Shown here in pieces: positions 3,349 through 20,754 of a stretch of 64,000 bases of DNA (its first letter is position 1; every line of letters starts with the position of its first letter). The translations under genes and the position numbers were made by a program. The DNA comes from an uncultured Gammaproteobacteria bacterium (GTDB lineage Bacteria > Patescibacteriota > Patescibacteriia > UBA9570 > XYC2-FULL-38-9), in contig CAZBLE010000002.1 of the NCBI GenBank assembly GCA_964492735.1, positions 64,135 to 128,134 of the forward strand. Direction: 5' to 3'. Below the pieces are notes generated by a model. It saw only the letters and a list, made by a program, of their open reading frames with translations, made no database searches and was not told where the DNA came from.

Positions 3349-3377
3349 TTGACAGGTTTTTTTCACAAGAGTAGTAT
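3349..3377 (+). promoter_or_regulatory. Sigma70-like promoter of the first trkH paralog.
   Basis: TTGACA at 3349-3354, a 17-nt spacer, then TAGTAT at 3372-3377. Confidence 0.5.
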
Positions 3378-3420
3378 GGTCCGTGGCTTCTTGAAAATAT
3401 ATACACTAATCGTTTTACGA

Positions 3421-3459
3421 CAACTTGAGAATAAGGTTCCTCAAGTTGAATGATTTTTT
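3421..3459 (+). promoter_or_regulatory. Conserved leader hairpin (CAACTTGAG-N10-CTCAAGTTG) followed by a T6 run. Candidate attenuator or cis-regulatory RNA in the trkH-1 5' leader.
   Basis: A perfect 9-bp inverted repeat at 3421-3429 and 3440-3448, then AATGATTTTTTG. It sits about +37 from the predicted transcription start. The same CAACTTGAGAA...CAAGTTGA motif recurs in the trkH-2 leader at 5941-5970. Confidence 0.4.
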
Positions 3460-3593
3460 GTTGATTGTAGCAATAAAAATCTTACGACATTTCTGGTTCA
3501 GGTATTTTAATCTTGAACAAGAGGCGTCGTAATTGAACGATGGTATACTATTTTTCATAAAAAGTCCCTCACTTAATTTTAACGTGCCTTTTT

Positions 3594-5315
3594 ATGTTGA
3601 AACAACGGTTTCACTATCTATATTCAGCGCTCATTCCAGCGCTTCAAATTCAAATTGTTTTATTTTGTGGCTTTCTTTTAAGTCTCGGTGTGAGTATTTT
3701 TTATCAAGTAGTGAATGACCCTCGTTATCCAGTAGAGCGCCCCGCGTTATTATTTTATGGGATTATTATTAGTGGTGCCTGTGTATTATTGGGTCATTTA
3801 CTTAGTAAATACACTATGTATGACCATGAGCTTGATTTAGGGCATGGTGCGTGGGTCGTCTTTTTTACATGGATGATTGCGTGTGCGACTTCTGGCTTTG
3901 TGTTTATGCAGGCAGGATTTCCAGTGCCATCACGCGTTGAAGACTTTGCACTGGCGCGTCGATTTTTTGATGGCTTTTATGAATCAATGTCTGGGTTTAC
4001 AACGACTGGTACAAGTATTTTACCAAGCGTGGAAGCCTTTCCGCGGAGTATTTTATTTTGGCGTTCACTGACGCATTGGATTGGTGGGATGGGGATTGCG
4101 TTTATGGCACTGACCCTTTGGAAGGCAATTACTACTCGACGCTCAGAAGTTATTAATTCAGAAGCAGAGTCACCACATATTATTGCGTTTAAGAATGACC
4201 AAGAATCACGGCAGTCCGGATTTGATTTTTTGAAAACATACAGCTTTTTAAGCGCACTTTGCTTTATTGCGTTGTATCTGTCAGGTCATTTTTTTCGAGA
4301 CGTGCCATATGCACAGTGGTACGATAACCTTTTTGATTCCTTAACGATTACTTTTGGCACAATGGGAACTGGTGGCTTTGGTGTGTATGATTCAAGTATT
4401 GGGTTGCCGATTATAGAAAATGGACAGCTGATTACTGGTGGATTAAGGAATGCTGTTTCAGAATGGATCATTGCGTTTTTCATGGCTTTTGCTGGAATGA
4501 ATTTTGCATTATGGTATTCATTGATTTTTAAGGGCCGATTATTAAACATGCTGAAAAATCGTGAGTTCCAAGTATTTTGGTTATTCATTATTCTCAGCAC
4601 AGCTTCAATTACCTATTTATTGGTTCAATCTGGCATTCATGATTCTACACTTGAGTCATTACGTTTCGCGTTCTTTAATGTCACAAATATTGTTTCAACC
4701 ACTGGTTTTGGTAATGACGATTTCAACCTTTGGCCAGTTGGTGCTCAAGCGATCTTATTCTTGTCATACCTCACAGGCGCAATGGTTGGTTCCACCGGCG
4801 GTGGGTTAAAGTTTATTCGGTTTATCGTCTTGTTTAAATATCTCGGCATGCAAATTAAAAATTTGATCACCGGCTCTCAGAAATCTGGATTTGTTATCGA
4901 TGGTGTACGATACAATGATCGCAGTAGTGCATTGATTATTACGACCGTCACTATTTATTTCATGTTGTTTTTAGGAGGTGCGGTAGTCATTTTGTTGACA
5001 GGCAGTCAGGCGACATTTACAGATGGAACGATCCGCGGTATGGACTTTTTCACAGGATTTAATGCGGCGATTGCCAACCTTGGTAACATCGGGCCATCGA
5101 TTGTCAATGGTATTGCAGGAGCGGGCCCAACTGGGAACTACTCGTCATTTAGTACAGTTGCAAAAGTTGTTATGGCGATTCTGATGTTTATTGGCCGCAT
5201 TGGCGTGTTAACTTGCTTAATGTTGTTTGTGACAAAGCGTGGATTGGAAAATATGAACACTGAAAGAGCAGCAGTTGAATTTGATTCAGATACACCATTA
5301 TTACTCGGACGTTAA
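3594..5315 (+). CDS. trkH: TrkH/KtrB-family cation (K+) transporter, paralog 1.
   Basis: Multi-TM protein carrying the selectivity-filter-like motifs MSGFTTTGTSIL, FGTMGTGGFGVYD, VSTTGFGNDDF and GSTGGGLKFIRF that are characteristic of the Trk/Ktr/HKT superfamily. Confidence 0.8.
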   Translation: MLKQRFHYLYSALIPALQIQIVLFCGFLLSLGVSIFYQVVNDPRYPVERPALLFYGIIISGACVLLGHLLSKYTMYDHELDLGHGAWVVFFTWMIACATSGFVFMQAGFPVPSRVEDFALARRFFDGFYESMSGFTTTGTSILPSVEAFPRSILFWRSLTHWIGGMGIAFMALTLWKAITTRRSEVINSEAESPHIIAFKNDQESRQSGFDFLKTYSFLSALCFIALYLSGHFFRDVPYAQWYDNLFDSLTITFGTMGTGGFGVYDSSIGLPIIENGQLITGGLRNAVSEWIIAFFMAFAGMNFALWYSLIFKGRLLNMLKNREFQVFWLFIILSTASITYLLVQSGIHDSTLESLRFAFFNVTNIVSTTGFGNDDFNLWPVGAQAILFLSYLTGAMVGSTGGGLKFIRFIVLFKYLGMQIKNLITGSQKSGFVIDGVRYNDRSSALIITTVTIYFMLFLGGAVVILLTGSQATFTDGTIRGMDFFTGFNAAIANLGNIGPSIVNGIAGAGPTGNYSSFSTVAKVVMAILMFIGRIGVLTCLMLFVTKRGLENMNTERAAVEFDSDTPLLLGR

Positions 5316-18722: not shown

Positions 18723-18736
18723 ACAGGAATACACAT

Positions 18737-20131
18737 ATGAAAGTTTGGTATAACACAATTAAAGAAATTACCGGACCACTCGTGATCGTGGAAAAAGTGA
18801 ACGGTGTGTCCTACGAAGAAATGGTTGAAGTGCGTGATGGTTCAGGTCGCATCCGTCGTGGTCGCGTTCTCGAAGTATCAGGCGATACAGCTGTTGTGCA
18901 GTTGTTTACAACCACTGAAGGTCTTGATACAGATAAAGCAGAAGTTGCGTTTTTAGGTGAAACATTGCAAATGGGTGTGTCTGAGCAAATGCTCGGTCGC
19001 GTCCTTGATGGTTTCGGAAATCCAAAAGATGGTGGCCCTGCAATCGTTCCAGAAGCCTATTTAGACATTAACGGTTCAGCGATTAACCCAGCACGTCGTG
19101 AATTTCCAGATGATTTCATTCAAACTGGTATTTCAACAATCGATGGCTTGAACTCATTGACTCGTGGTCAAAAACTGCCTATTTTCTCAGGTTCTGGTTT
19201 GCCACATAACGAAATTGCTGCGCAAATCGCGCGTCAAGCTCGTGTGGTAAAAGTGGAAAATGGTGAAAAGGTCATCGAAGATGATTCAAAATTCGCCGTT
19301 GTCTTTGCGGCAATGGGTGTGACGTTTGAAGAAGCGGAATTCTTTAAAAACGAATTCTCACGGACTGGTGCGATGGAACGCGCAACATTGCTTATCAACG
19401 TTGCGAACGACCCAGTAGTTGAACGTATTACACTGCCTCGCATGGCTTTGACTCTTGGTGAATACTTAGCGTTTGAAAAAGACATGCATGTGCTCGTGAT
19501 CTTAACTGACATGACCAACTATGCTGATGCGCTTCGTGAAGTCTCTGCGTCTCGTAAAGAAGTTCCTGGACGCCGTGGCTATCCTGGATATCTCTACACT
19601 GATCTCGCGATGTTATATGAACGAGCCGGTCGCGTTATTGGGTCTGAAGGGTCTTTGACTCAAATCCCAATTATCACAATGCCTGATGATGATAAAACTC
19701 ATCCAATTCCTGATTTGACCGGATACATTACTGAAGGTCAGATCATGATTGATCGTCCATTACATAAGAGTGGTATTTATCCATCAGTGAATATTTTACC
19801 TTCATTGTCTCGTATTCCAGTTGATAAAGAAAAGATCCGTGAAGACTATTCTGGTGTGAAAGATCAGCTCTTTAGTTCATATGCGAAGGGTAAAGAAATT
19901 AAAGAACTTGCATTGATTCTCGGTGAAAGTGCATTGTCTGCAACTGACCGTGCGTACATGAAATTCTCTGATGAATTTGAAAAACGCTATGTCACACAAG
20001 GCAAGAACGAAAACCGTAGTATTCTCGACACATTAAACATTGCTTGGGAATTGCTTGCGATTTTGCCAAAAGCTGAACTCAAAAAAGTGAAGGTAGAGCA
20101 TATTGAAAAATACGGTAAAGGTATCCAATAA
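18737..20131 (+). CDS. atpB: A/V-type ATPase subunit B.
   Basis: 464 aa with the conserved ...[14 protein letters not shown]... and ...[15 protein letters not shown]... motifs. Confidence 0.95.
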
Positions 20132-20136
20132 TCTCT

Positions 20137-20754
20137 ATGGCAAGCGCACAAATCAAACCAACCCGACAAGAGCTGTTAAAGCTCAAGAATAAGCTGAAAA
20201 TCGCTGAAAAAGGGCACAAGCTCTTGAAAGACAAGCGAGATGGTTTGATTCGCGCTTTTTTGAAGATCGTAAAAGAATCTTTGGAATTGCGTAAACTCGT
20301 CGATGAACGCATTATCGAAGCACAGCAATTGTTCTCACTTGCAGAGGCTCGCACATCTGCGGCTCTGCTTTCCGCAATTGCGAAAAATTCGAAAGCCACT
20401 GTTTCTTTGCAAACCGAAAAGTCCAATATCATGGGCGTTCGTATTTCAAAGATGACAGCAAGTGTTCAAGGCGATCCATTTTGCTACGGTGTCTTAGACA
20501 CAAATCGCGATTTGGATGAATCACTCGTTGCGTTAAATGAGCTAATGCCAGACCTCGTTCGACTCGTTGAATTAGAAGATGCAGCTCGTCGTCTTGCAGA
20601 AGAAATTGAAAAAACCCGTCGTCGTGTAAACGGTTTGGAATATGTCATTATTCCAGGCATGAAACGTGATGTACGATATATTCAAGCGAAACTGGAAGAG
20701 TCGGCTCGTCAAGAAAAAGTGACATTGATGAAGATTAAAGAACAGGTTGCATAA
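20137..20754 (+). CDS. atpD: A/V-type ATPase subunit D (central stalk).
   Basis: 205 aa of coiled coil. N-terminus MASAQIKPTRQELLKLKNKLKIAEKGHKLLKDKRDGL matches the subunit-D consensus. Confidence 0.9.
   Translation: MASAQIKPTRQELLKLKNKLKIAEKGHKLLKDKRDGLIRAFLKIVKESLELRKLVDERIIEAQQLFSLAEARTSAALLSAIAKNSKATVSLQTEKSNIMGVRISKMTASVQGDPFCYGVLDTNRDLDESLVALNELMPDLVRLVELEDAARRLAEEIEKTRRRVNGLEYVIIPGMKRDVRYIQAKLEESARQEKVTLMKIKEQVA

What the first reader, a model, noticed from the sequence alone, without database searches (positions are those of the whole stretch)
3349..20754. A clustered Na+/K+ homeostasis module: three TrkH/KtrB paralogs, an NhaD-type permease and a Na+ V-ATPase. It recalls the E. hirae ntp operon with its ntpJ.
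Within 17 kb lie three tandem TrkH-family K+ transporters with no TrkA/KtrA gating subunit nearby, an ArsB/NhaD-superfamily ion permease, and a complete A/V-ATPase operon whose rotor predicts Na+ specificity. In E. hirae the Na+ V-ATPase operon ends with ntpJ, a KtrB-like K+ transporter. This looks like a functionally analogous but physically rearranged arrangement, with the transporter genes triplicated. The ATPase gene order H-I-K-E-C-F-A-B-D is the archaeal A1AO order, not the Enterococcus/Thermus V-type order.
Basis: partly seen in the sequence, partly recalled or inferred. Interest (0 to 1): 0.65.

Follow-up and report, generated by a model that had tools for sequence, protein, structure and literature searches.

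The report
Sodium V-ATPase beside potassium transporter genes
An uncultured CPR (Patescibacteria) bacterium keeps a rotary ATPase predicted to pump sodium next to three potassium-channel genes, which echoes a known Enterococcus arrangement; it is real but largely ordinary, with a few unusual side features.

Summary
The genes are there. Three TrkH-superfamily genes sit upstream of a nine-gene V/A-ATPase operon: one TrkH-type and two KtrB-type. The operon's 4-helix K subunit keeps every Na+ ligand of Enterococcus hirae NtpK. No TrkA/KtrA gene lies in the 64 kb window.

- The permease belongs to the CitMHS/ArsB superfamily but is not NhaD-type.
- The three TrkH genes are not a triplication. They are an old TrkH–kinase-like pair, a mobile KtrB gene and a high-GC foreign KtrB gene.
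- The order H-I-K-E-C-F-A-B-D is also the Enterococcus order (ntpF-I-K-E-C-G-A-B-D) under different letters.

Functional linkage is partly supported. A 68%-related genome has Kup and NhaB, both high-GC, in the same slot. This KtrB clade lies within 10 kb of a rotary ATPase in 3 of 9 lineages, against 0 of 80 ordinary KtrB loci, and it never has an adjacent KtrA. However, the transporters and the ATPase are separate transcription units with two opposite-strand genes between them.

Side findings:
- The V1 genes F-A-B-D were recently exchanged between lineages.
- A kinase-like protein lacking the shikimate-kinase motifs always follows the TrkH-type gene.
- A conserved leader precedes the swapped transporters.

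Verdict: a new variant of a known kind, of moderate interest.

The parts
3349..3377 (+). Promoter-like site (TTGACA-17-TAGTAT) before TrkH-1.
   Evidence: It is a consensus match only; such sites are not enriched over shuffles.
3421..3448 (.). 28-bp palindrome CAACTTGAG..CAAGTTG in the TrkH-1 leader.
   Evidence: It occurs only here and at 5941-5970 in the 64 kb window, with 0 expected. It is conserved before TrkH-1 in L083.
3594..5315 (+). TrkH-1: a TrkH-type K+ transporter membrane subunit (573 aa).
   Evidence: Pfam TrkH 86 bits. Best solved relative is V. parahaemolyticus TrkH 3pjz, 90 bits, with a glycine in all four P-loops. Orthologues are found in L083 (77%), L003 (54%) and L169/L170 (48%).
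5325..5837 (+). Shikimate-kinase-like P-loop protein (170 aa), 9 nt after TrkH-1.
   Evidence: Pfam SKI 97 bits. It follows TrkH-1 in all five loci examined. It lacks the 'FR' and 'RPL' arginine motifs that all 17 canonical shikimate kinase hits keep.
5868..5895 (+). Promoter-like site (TTGACC-16-TATAAT) before TrkH-2.
5941..5970 (.). Second copy of the palindrome, in the TrkH-2 leader.
6117..7727 (+). TrkH-2: a KtrB-type K+ channel subunit (536 aa), native base composition.
   Evidence: Pfam TrkH 227 bits. KtrB 7zpr/4j7c score 170-178 bits, with VTGL/NAGF/TAGF/TVGL filters, a TGGGIK gating loop and GRIGPLT. Many homologues are 60-65% identical. It is absent from this position in L083 and lies upstream of TrkH-1 in L003.
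7759..7864 (+). Conserved non-coding leader 'part A' before the foreign transporter gene.
   Evidence: 88% identical to L083 9726-9829 and 73-78% to L003 3443-3562. No Rfam match.
7896..9392 (+). TrkH-3: a KtrB-type gene of foreign composition (498 aa from ATG 7896; the ORF opens at TTG 7884).
   Evidence: GC 0.57, GC3 0.72 and a TGA stop, against GC3 about 0.33 for the neighbours. 46% identical to TrkH-2. No database relative above 50% apart from its own species group. The L083 orthologue is 94% identical with GC3 0.71, and differs at 116 synonymous against 30 amino-acid-changing codons. The gene is also present in an independent assembly.
9515..10483 (-). IF-2B-family protein (ribose-1,5-bisphosphate or methylthioribose-1-phosphate isomerase-like). 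Not part of the ion module.
   Evidence: Pfam IF-2B 109 bits. All NCBIfam matches are far below their cut-offs.
10496..11803 (-). IT-superfamily (CitMHS/ArsB) permease of unknown substrate, co-oriented with the IF-2B gene.
   Evidence: CitMHS 253 bits. NCBIfam: MamN 170, DASS 114, ArsB 85, NhaD 41-53 bits, all below their cut-offs. 95% identical in L002.
12174..12503 (+). Putative peripheral-stalk subunit H/G (the NtpF position). The start is probably ATG 12219.
   Evidence: Position, size and charged composition only. No profile or PDB match.
12513..14552 (+). Subunit I (a), the stator.
   Evidence: NCBIfam subunit I 266 bits. Best solved relative is E. hirae NtpI 8wci_P, 124 bits over the full length, against Thermus at 64. 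The motifs SYTRL and GRLHFVEF are visible in the sequence.
14583..15053 (+). Subunit K (c): a 4-helix proteolipid with one Na+ site.
   Evidence: Two ATP-synt_C repeats. NCBIfam subunit K 138 bits, above its cut-off of 127. Aligned to NtpK 2bl2: L61=L53, T64->S56, Q65=Q57, Y68=Y60, Q110=Q108, E139=E137. The ligand list is from PMC10382590.
15073..15621 (+). Subunit E (peripheral stalk), very divergent.
   Evidence: No sequence match. Only 13 homologues among 1.84 billion representatives. The AF2 model (pLDDT 85) has an 88-residue N-terminal helix and an alpha/beta C-terminal domain. The only full-length fold matches are V-ATPase entries (V1-EG, V1 and whole-complex structures), with TM 0.45-0.52.
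15590..16534 (+). Subunit C (d).
   Evidence: Pfam vATP-synt_AC39 37 bits.
16545..16877 (+). Subunit F (NtpG).
   Evidence: NCBIfam subunit F, E 2e-5, below its cut-off. The top PDB match is E. hirae NtpG(F) 3aon_B, E 0.06, over the full length.
16887..18722 (+). Catalytic subunit A.
   Evidence: Four Pfam domains. P. horikoshii A scores 758 bits and E. hirae NtpA 752 bits.
18737..20131 (+). Subunit B.
20137..20754 (+). Subunit D (central shaft).
   Evidence: Pfam ATP-synt_D 179 bits.

Best explanation
This is a loosely linked cation-homeostasis neighbourhood in a CPR/Patescibacteria genome.

The core is an E. hirae-type V-ATPase. Each 4-helix K subunit carries one complete Na+ site. In an organism of this kind the enzyme most likely hydrolyses fermentation-derived ATP to expel Na+ and build a membrane potential and a Na+ gradient. 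That step is inferred, not shown.

Upstream sit three separately transcribed K+ uptake channels: a TrkH-type gene with a conserved kinase-like partner, a native KtrB-type gene, and a foreign but selected KtrB-type gene. They would take up K+ using that potential.

The space between the TrkH-kinase-like pair and the ATPase operon is a flexible slot. Related lineages hold different, often horizontally acquired, cation transporters there, behind a conserved leader.

The IF-2B/permease pair on the other strand is not shown to belong to the module.
For: - All six residues of the NtpK Na+ pocket are conserved, with T64 replaced by S (residue list from PMC10382590). L003, L004 and L005 show the same motif.
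- Among solved structures, subunits I and K are closest to E. hirae.
- ValRS relatives place the organism in CPR. Soda-lake CPR were described as fermenters using Na+-capable V-ATPases to energise the membrane (PMC6146748).
- All four filter glycines are kept in each of the three channels.
- Synteny holds in relatives. L083/L002 have TrkH-1, the SK-like gene, TrkH-3, IF-2B, CitMHS and then the ATPase. L003 has TrkH-2, TrkH-1, the SK-like gene, high-GC Kup, NhaB and an unknown ORF, and then the ATPase.
- In the TrkH-2 clade a rotary ATPase lies within 10 kb in 3 of 9 lineages. L085 and L086 are F-type, with an E...ESTxxY c subunit. The figure is 0 of 80 for generic KtrB loci: Fisher p 5e-4 for 3/8, and about 7e-4 by hand after adding L172.
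- Other cation transporters lie beside the clade gene in almost every context.
- TrkH-3 is under purifying selection.
Against: - The units are separate. Two opposite-strand genes lie between TrkH-3 and the ATPase, and each unit has its own promoter-like site.
- No cis-element shared with the ATPase was found.
- Six of nine clade lineages have no ATPase nearby.
- High-GC foreign genes also occur elsewhere in the window with no ion function, so insertion alone proves nothing.
- No RCK gating subunit was found, so channel activity and regulation are uncertain. KtrB alone has low open probability and also passes Na+ (PMC6888753).
- Ion specificity and pump direction are predictions from sequence.
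Confidence: 0.6

Rival explanations
1. The neighbourhood has no functional meaning. The ATPase operon and the transporter genes are independent units that lie together because the genome is small. The segment after the tRNA-Leu/Val genes is simply a permissive insertion and recombination site.
For: - Separate promoter-like sites and intervening opposite-strand genes.
- tRNA genes at 2520-2781.
- Scattered high-GC single-gene insertions elsewhere: 50492-52193 and 58400-59988.
- TrkH-2 changes position or is absent among close relatives.
- Six of nine clade lineages lack an ATPase nearby.
- In E. faecalis ntpJ is about 1 Mb from the ntp genes.
Against: - The inserted genes in this slot are cation transporters in both lineages: TrkH-3 here, Kup and NhaB in L003.
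- A conserved leader precedes them.
- ATPase linkage is 3/9 against 0/80.
Confidence: 0.25
2. The enzyme is an ATP synthase, or an H+-coupled machine, rather than a Na+ export pump. The K+ channels are then unrelated to a Na+ cycle.
For: - Subunit A is as close to the Pyrococcus A-type ATP synthase as to E. hirae NtpA.
- Gene order does not discriminate.
- Motif-based ion assignment is a prediction only.
Against: - The Na+ ligand set is complete.
- The 4-helix K subunit has one carboxylate per four helices, as in the E. hirae pump.
- Subunits I and K are closest to E. hirae.
- The CPR studied in PMC6146748 were inferred to be fermenters lacking most of the respiratory chain.
- Nothing in the window would generate an ion gradient.
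Confidence: 0.1
3. The KtrA-less KtrB-type proteins are not K+ uptake systems. They are Na+-conducting or general cation leak or entry channels, so the cluster manages Na+ cycling rather than K+ accumulation.
For: - KtrB without KtrA passes Na+ efficiently and K+ only slowly (PMC6888753).
- No KtrA lies beside any of 11 clade contexts, against 54 of 80 for ordinary KtrB.
Against: - All four P-loop glycines, the gating loop and the D4M2 arginine motif are invariant across the clade. In this superfamily that pattern goes with K+ selectivity (established knowledge, recalled from memory).
- A TrkA/KtrA gene may exist elsewhere in the genome.
Confidence: 0.1

Closest known systems
Enterococcus hirae ntp operon (ntpFIKECGABDHJ): Na+-V-ATPase plus NtpJ/KtrB
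   Same: - Same nine structural genes in the same order.
- 4-helix K subunit with the L/T(S)/Q/Y/Q/E Na+ pocket.
- Subunits I and K are the best solved-structure matches.
- A KtrB-type gene lies in the neighbourhood.
   Different: - The K+ transporter genes are upstream, in separate transcription units, with two opposite-strand genes between them and the ATPase.
- There are three of them, from two subfamilies.
- There is no ntpH equivalent.
- The stalk subunits E and H are too divergent for any profile to detect.
- The host is a CPR bacterium.
KtrAB / TrkAH K+ uptake systems
   Same: Membrane subunits with four M1-P-M2 repeats, filter glycines, an intramembrane gating loop and a conserved arginine.
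   Different: - No RCK subunit (KtrA/TrkA) lies in the 64 kb window or beside any clade member examined.
- By contrast, 54 of 80 ordinary KtrB genes have ktrA adjacent.
- TrkH-1 is instead always followed by a shikimate-kinase-like P-loop protein.
V-type ATPases of soda-lake CPR (Vavourakis et al. 2018, PMC6146748)
   Same: - L004 and L005 carry isolate prefixes (T3Sed10, CSBr16) that look like that soda-lake data set; this attribution was not verified.
- They are the next relatives of subunit I (39%).
- They share the Na+ motif in K.
   Different: - The closest relative comes from a freshwater lake (the Lake Mendota metagenome).
- That paper states that CPR from neutral environments were, with two exceptions, reported to have only F-type ATPases.
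Archaeal A1AO ATP synthase (ahaHIKECFABD)
   Same: The gene order is identical (PMC2838876). Subunit A is equally similar to the Pyrococcus A subunit.
   Different: Subunits I and K are much closer to the E. hirae bacterial V-type enzyme than to any other solved structure. The order is not diagnostic, because bacterial V-type operons share it.
NhaD Na+/H+ antiporters (IT superfamily)
   Same: Same superfamily fold class (CitMHS/ArsB/NhaD).
   Different: NhaD models score far below their cut-offs. MamN, DASS and ArsB models score higher. The substrate is unknown.

Membership tests
E. hirae-type Na+-translocating V-ATPase | Full subunit set: G/H, I(a), K(c), E, C(d), F, A, B, D | tested here: met
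   I, K, C, F, A, B and D are identified by Pfam/NCBIfam. E is identified by predicted fold only. H rests on position, size and composition only, and is the weakest link.
E. hirae-type Na+-translocating V-ATPase | Quadruple-helix c subunit with a single ion-binding carboxylate in helix 4 | tested here: met
   156 aa with two ATP-synt_C repeats. E137 aligns with E139. The first hairpin has PGSQ and no carboxylate.
E. hirae-type Na+-translocating V-ATPase | Na+ pocket residues L61, T64, Q65, Y68, Q110, E139 | tested here: met
   L53, S56, Q57, Y60, Q108, E137. The residue list comes from PMC10382590. T to S keeps the hydroxyl.
E. hirae-type Na+-translocating V-ATPase | Stator arginines of subunit a (R573, R629) | tested here: inconclusive
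   There is a full-length match to NtpI, and the motifs SYTRL and GRLHFVEF are present. The residue-by-residue alignment was not printed, so equivalence is inferred.
E. hirae-type Na+-translocating V-ATPase | ATP-driven Na+ transport | not testable with these tools
   This needs biochemistry.
E. hirae ntp operon architecture | KtrB gene (ntpJ) co-transcribed at the 3' end of the operon | tested here: not met
   The KtrB-type genes lie 2.8-4.4 kb upstream, with two opposite-strand genes and separate promoter-like sites in between. Convergent queA follows subunit D.
Ktr/Trk K+ uptake system | Membrane subunit with four P-loops, each with the filter glycine | tested here: met
Ktr/Trk K+ uptake system | RCK gating subunit (KtrA/TrkA) encoded with it | tested here: not met
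   None in the 64 kb window. Presence elsewhere in the genome could not be tested.
NhaD Na+/H+ antiporter | Score above the curated cut-off of the NhaD models | tested here: not met
   TIGR00775 scores 52.7 bits against a cut-off of 577. NF038006 scores 41.4 against 80.
Archaeal A1AO ATP synthase (as opposed to bacterial V-type) | Gene order or subunit affinity that separates it from bacterial V-type operons | tested here: not met
   The order is the same in E. hirae and in 80 bacterial loci. Subunit A is equidistant. Subunits I and K are closer to E. hirae.
Shikimate kinase (AroK/AroL) | Substrate and LID arginines: the 'FR' motif (Arg58) and the 'RPL' motif (Arg117). The roles of these residues are recalled from the M. 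tuberculosis enzyme literature. | tested here: not met
   The P-loop, the DxD-type aspartate and the C-terminal arginine are kept. 'FR' is replaced by (L/F)W and 'RPL' is absent in all five TrkH-linked proteins. Both motifs are present in all 17 canonical hits.

The most novel reading that the evidence does not exclude
This lineage, and others, may use an RCK-less K+ uptake machinery made of two parts. One is a KtrA-independent KtrB clade. The other is a TrkH whose nucleotide-sensing partner is a degenerate shikimate-kinase-fold P-loop protein instead of TrkA. Under this reading the machinery is genomically and functionally tied to Na+-coupled rotary ATPases of both V and F type. The gene downstream of a conserved, possibly structured, leader would be a plug-in position where foreign cation transporters (KtrB, Kup, NhaB) are exchanged.
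Probability: 0.15. Interest if true: 0.7.

Novelty: new variant of a known kind. Interest (0 to 1): 0.45.

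Why it matters
CPR bacteria were described as fermenters without most respiratory complexes (PMC6146748), so how they energise their membrane and hold K+ is an open practical question. The one survey read here found K+ uptake 'enigmatic' in soda-lake CPR and reported V-type ATPases to be rare in CPR from neutral habitats.

This locus gives a concrete and testable model: an E. 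hirae-type Na+ pump with K+ channels beside it, in a relative of a freshwater lineage.

If the side observations hold, they add three things:
- a candidate new accessory protein for TrkH;
- a KtrB clade that works without KtrA;
- evidence that the catalytic V1 head can be swapped between lineages independently of the membrane sector.

Tried and rejected
- **Known riboswitches (c-di-AMP, Na+ or Li+) before the transporter genes.** Rfam found nothing at the gathering threshold on the whole window, nor at E<=1 on 3200-12600 and on L003/L083.
- **Sequence identification of subunits E and H.** I tried Pfam, NCBIfam, PDB phmmer, a PDB profile search, and HMMs built from the ORFs at the same operon positions in 67-71 bacterial loci. 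All were negative. E was rescued only by predicted fold.
- **Donor of the high-GC TrkH-3.** The 5.8-billion-protein search gave no relative above 50% outside its own species group. The high-GC Kup of L087 is only 34% identical to the L003 Kup. The donor remains unknown.
- **Chimeric assembly as the cause of the GC island.** Rejected, because the island is present in independent Logan and JGI assemblies and in an orthologous position in a related species.
- **Metagenome scan for the TrkH-2 clade.** It returned only generic KtrB at 33-39% identity, because the search patterns were the universal filter motifs. I used that set as the background control instead.
- **A cis-motif shared by all four upstream regions, including the ATPase.** Only trivial AT-rich 8-mers were shared.
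- **Orthology of the permease with the CitMHS gene fused to the L171 KtrB operon.** Only 25% identity.
- **More copies of leader part B.** None in viral contigs.

Full report
**What is there**

The region holds, on the + strand:
- TrkH-1 at 3594-5315
- a shikimate-kinase-like gene at 5325-5837
- TrkH-2 at 6117-7727
- TrkH-3 at 7884/7896-9392

On the - strand it holds an IF-2B-family gene (9515-10483) and a CitMHS/ArsB-superfamily permease (10496-11803).

Back on the + strand there are nine ATPase genes from 12174 to 20754. Convergent queA and ruvB follow.

ValRS from the window finds its named relatives among Patescibacteria/CPR at 51-60% identity: Kerfeldbacteria, Uhrbacteria, Buchananbacteria and Falkowbacteria. 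It also finds two close relatives at 88-90%. The host is therefore an uncultured CPR bacterium with few sequenced relatives. An identical copy of the ATPase operon occurs in a Logan assembly of SRR12487046.

**The ATPase**

- Subunits I, K, C, F, A, B and D are identified by Pfam and/or NCBIfam.
- The 182-aa ORF between K and C matches nothing by sequence: not Pfam, NCBIfam, PDB, a PDB profile search, or an HMM of the equivalent ORFs from 67 bacterial operons. It has only 13 homologues among 1.84 billion representative proteins.
- Its AlphaFold model (pLDDT 85) is an 88-residue N-terminal helix followed by a small alpha/beta domain. The only full-length Foldseek matches in the PDB are V-ATPase entries from Thermus, yeast, bovine and human (V1-EG, V1 and whole-complex structures; chain identities were not checked), with TM 0.45-0.52. 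I accept it as subunit E.
- The first ORF (109 aa, probably 94 aa) is called H/G only from its position, size and charged composition.
- Among solved structures, subunit K is closest to E. hirae NtpK (87 bits). Subunit I is closest to E. hirae NtpI (124 bits, against 64 for Thermus). Subunit A is equally close to Pyrococcus A and E. hirae NtpA, at 758 and 752 bits.

The alignment to NtpK gives L61=L53, T64->S56, Q65=Q57, Y68=Y60, Q110=Q108 and E139=E137. These are exactly the residues listed as the Na+ pocket in PMC10382590. The protein has two hairpins and a single carboxylate, as in the E. hirae decameric ring. K subunits of L003, L004 and L005 carry the same motif.

**Gene order**

The E. 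hirae operon is ntpF-I-K-E-C-G-A-B-D-H-J (PMC12604602). NtpG is the F subunit, as shown by the PDB name of 3aon_B, which is also the top hit of the window's F. NtpF occupies the H/G position. The archaeal operon is ahaHIKECFABD (PMC2838876).

In all 80 bacterial loci fetched with subunit I, the detectable genes run I-K-(..)-A-B-D. Of the 76 more distant loci (L006-L081), 71 have a small ORF before I and 67 have an E-sized ORF after K. The order is therefore shared, and the contrast is an artefact of nomenclature.

**The three TrkH-family genes**

- TrkH-1 is TrkH-type. Its best solved relative is Vibrio TrkH at 90 bits.
- TrkH-2 and TrkH-3 are KtrB-type. KtrB structures score 170-178 bits, and the VTGL/NAGF/TAGF/TVGL filters, the TGGGIK loop and GRIGPLT are conserved.

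They are not a recent triplication:
- TrkH-2 and TrkH-3 are 46% identical.
- TrkH-2 belongs to a populous clade at 60-65% identity. TrkH-3 is an orphan, at most 50% identical to anything outside its own species group.
- TrkH-3 is a sharp compositional island: GC 0.57, GC3 0.72 and a TGA stop, against GC3 of about 0.33 and TAA/TAG stops around it.
- The island is not an assembly artefact. It is present in independent Logan and JGI assemblies and in the orthologous place in a Lake Mendota relative (L083). There it is 94% identical in protein, has GC3 0.71, and differs by 116 synonymous against 30 replacement codons, so it is under purifying selection.
- L083 lacks TrkH-2 at this position. In L003 the TrkH-2 orthologue lies upstream of TrkH-1.

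**No gating subunit**

Pfam scans of every ORF of 80 aa or more in the window found no TrkA_N or TrkA_C domain. For a control, I clustered the neighbours of 80 ordinary KtrB genes from metagenomes. In 54 of 80, an adjacent protein of about 225 aa proved to be KtrA (TrkA_N plus TrkA_C). An HMM of those proteins found nothing, even at E<=10, in the six-frame translation of the window and 13 related loci. The contrast of 0 of 10 (now 11) clade contexts against 54 of 80 gives Fisher p 4e-5. Whether a TrkA/KtrA gene exists elsewhere in the genome cannot be tested here.

**The permease**

It matches CitMHS at 253 bits. In NCBIfam the best models are MamN (170), DASS (114) and ArsB (85). The two NhaD models score 53 and 41 bits against cut-offs of 577 and 80. 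It is an IT-superfamily permease of unknown substrate, co-oriented with the IF-2B-family gene 12 nt downstream. 'NhaD-type' is not supported.

**Is the neighbourhood meaningful?**

Evidence for:
- The 93% relative (L002 plus L083) has L19, TrkH-1, the SK-like gene, TrkH-3, IF-2B, CitMHS and then H-I-K-E.
- The 68% relative (L003) has TrkH-2, TrkH-1 and the SK-like gene. A 6-kb block of 53-63% GC follows, holding Kup (457 bits), NhaB (540 bits) and a secreted unknown ORF. The ATPase operon comes next.
- So two diverged lineages carry different, compositionally foreign cation transporters in the same slot.
- For nine lineages of the TrkH-2 clade I looked 10 kb to each side. A rotary ATPase operon was present in three. 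One is the window lineage (V-type). The other two are L085 (F-type, 6 kb away) and L086 (F-type, 0.4 kb away, with a Na+/H+ exchanger on the other side).
- None of the 80 generic KtrB loci (872 kb in total, 42 of them 10 kb or longer) had one. Fisher p is 5e-4 for 3/8, and about 7e-4 by hand after adding L172.
- The two F-type c subunits read ...AEG...ICESTGIYSL. From memory, this is the two-carboxylate Na+ motif of Fusobacterium-type c rings, but I did not verify that here.
- Almost every clade context also holds another cation transporter: Kup, Na+/H+ exchanger, Na+/Ca2+ exchanger, a CitMHS/ArsB permease, or TrkH-1.

Evidence against:
- The transporters and the ATPase are separate units, with two opposite-strand genes between them.
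- No cis-element shared with the ATPase upstream region was found.
- Six of nine lineages show no linkage.
- High-GC foreign genes occur elsewhere in the window without any ion function.
- In Enterococcus itself the link is loose.

**Mechanism proposed**

Shown:
- the gene content;
- the Na+ ligand set;
- intact K+ filters;
- purifying selection on TrkH-3;
- recurrence of the neighbourhood.

Inferred:
- The enzyme runs as an ATP-driven Na+ pump, by analogy with E. hirae and with the view of CPR as fermenters without a respiratory chain (PMC6146748).
- The resulting potential or Na+ gradient drives K+ entry through the TrkH/KtrB channels. KtrAB is Na+-activated, and KtrB alone conducts K+ slowly and also Na+ (PMC6888753).

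I put 0.6 on this overall. That combines about 0.9 for the annotations with about 0.5 for real functional coupling.

**Side observations**

(a) V1 gene exchange. Between the window and L003 the proteins compare as follows:

| Protein | Identity |
|---|---|
| H | 50% |
| I | 68% |
| K | 87% |
| E | 62% |
| C | 67% |
| F | 99% |
| A | 98.9% |
| B | 99.4% |
| D | 98.5% |
| QueA, RuvB | 85% |

ValRS of the L003 contig is 90% identical.
- DNA identity jumps from 61-72% to 91-98% between about 16.5 and 20.6 kb.
- Identical codons at conserved residues rise from 0.44-0.71 to 0.77-0.93.
- This points to a recent recombinational exchange of just the V1 genes, not to stronger constraint.

(b) The SK-like protein. 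It follows TrkH-1 in every locus where TrkH-1 occurs: the window, L083, L003, L169 and L170. Identity falls as low as 38%. It lacks the 'FR' and 'RPL' arginine motifs present in all 17 canonical shikimate kinases retrieved.

(c) A shared palindrome. A 28-30-bp palindrome, CAACTTGAG..CAAGTTG, occurs only in the leaders of TrkH-1 and TrkH-2 and before TrkH-1 in L083.

(d) A conserved leader. A conserved 106-nt element precedes TrkH-3 here and in L083, and precedes Kup in L003. A second, GC-rich element of about 150 nt with three predicted hairpins is shared by L083 and L003 but deleted in the window. No Rfam family matches.

**Verdict**

The locus is a rearranged, multi-transporter variant of the known pairing of a Na+-V-ATPase with KtrB, in a CPR host. 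That is moderately interesting in itself. The KtrA-less clade, the TrkH-linked kinase-like protein, the plug-in slot and the swapped V1 module are leads worth following.

Noticed in passing
window 16500-20600 (F, A, B, D) versus L003 14011-18220: The V1 genes F-A-B-D are 98.5-99.4% identical in protein and 91-98% in DNA to a relative whose H, I, K, E and C subunits are only 50-87% identical. Its flanking QueA and RuvB are 85% identical. Synonymous sites are also conserved. This indicates recent recombinational exchange of the catalytic head alone.
   Followed up: partly
window 5325-5837; L083 9201-9716; L003 2621-3151; L169 11490-12029; L170 11562-12101: A shikimate-kinase-fold P-loop protein always follows the TrkH-type gene. 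It lacks the 'FR' and 'RPL' arginine motifs of canonical shikimate kinases. It may be a nucleotide-binding partner of TrkH rather than an aromatic-pathway enzyme.
   Followed up: partly
window 7759-7864; L083 9726-9985; L003 3443-3726: A conserved non-coding leader precedes non-homologous foreign transporter genes: TrkH-3 in the window and L083, Kup in L003. A second, GC-rich part of about 150 nt has three predicted hairpins and a few compensatory changes. L083 and L003 share it, but it is deleted in the window. There is no Rfam match.
   Followed up: partly
window 3421-3448 and 5941-5970; L083 7301-7332: A 28-30-bp palindrome, CAACTTGAG..CAAGTTG, is found only in the leaders of TrkH-1 and TrkH-2 (0 expected by chance). 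It is conserved before TrkH-1 in a relative. It is probably a shared operator.
   Followed up: partly
window 50492-51058(-), 51414-52193(-), 58400-58800, 59329-59988(-); L003 3500-9500; L084 2314-4494: Single-gene islands of 55-67% GC with TGA stops are scattered through genomes of about 42% GC in this lineage. In the window they include a Tat-signal lipoprotein, a His-rich secreted protein and a glutathione-S-transferase-like gene (judged by eye from its translation; no family search was run). The donor is unknown.
   Followed up: partly
L085 17586-21626; L086 2866-9583: Two unrelated genomes carry a TrkH-2-clade gene next to an F-type ATP synthase operon. The c subunit there reads AEG...ICESTGIYSL, which may be a two-carboxylate Na+ motif. 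That motif assignment is recalled from memory and was not verified.
   Followed up: no
L171 8203-11602: A CBS-domain gene, a CitMHS/ArsB permease and a TrkH-2-clade gene form a tight co-directional cluster, with the permease and TrkH genes abutting. The permease is only 25% identical to the window's.
   Followed up: partly
window 3594-11803 versus L083/L002: Divergence from the closest relative is very uneven. TrkH-1 is 77% and the SK-like protein 73.5% identical. TrkH-3 is 94%, IF-2B 92%, CitMHS 95% and subunit I 93% identical. Subunit H is only 61% identical. This suggests frequent recombination or fast evolution of particular genes.
   Followed up: no
window 15073-15621: The subunit E family of this lineage is extremely rare and divergent. 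It has 13 homologues among 1.84 billion representatives, and no profile recognises it.
   Followed up: yes
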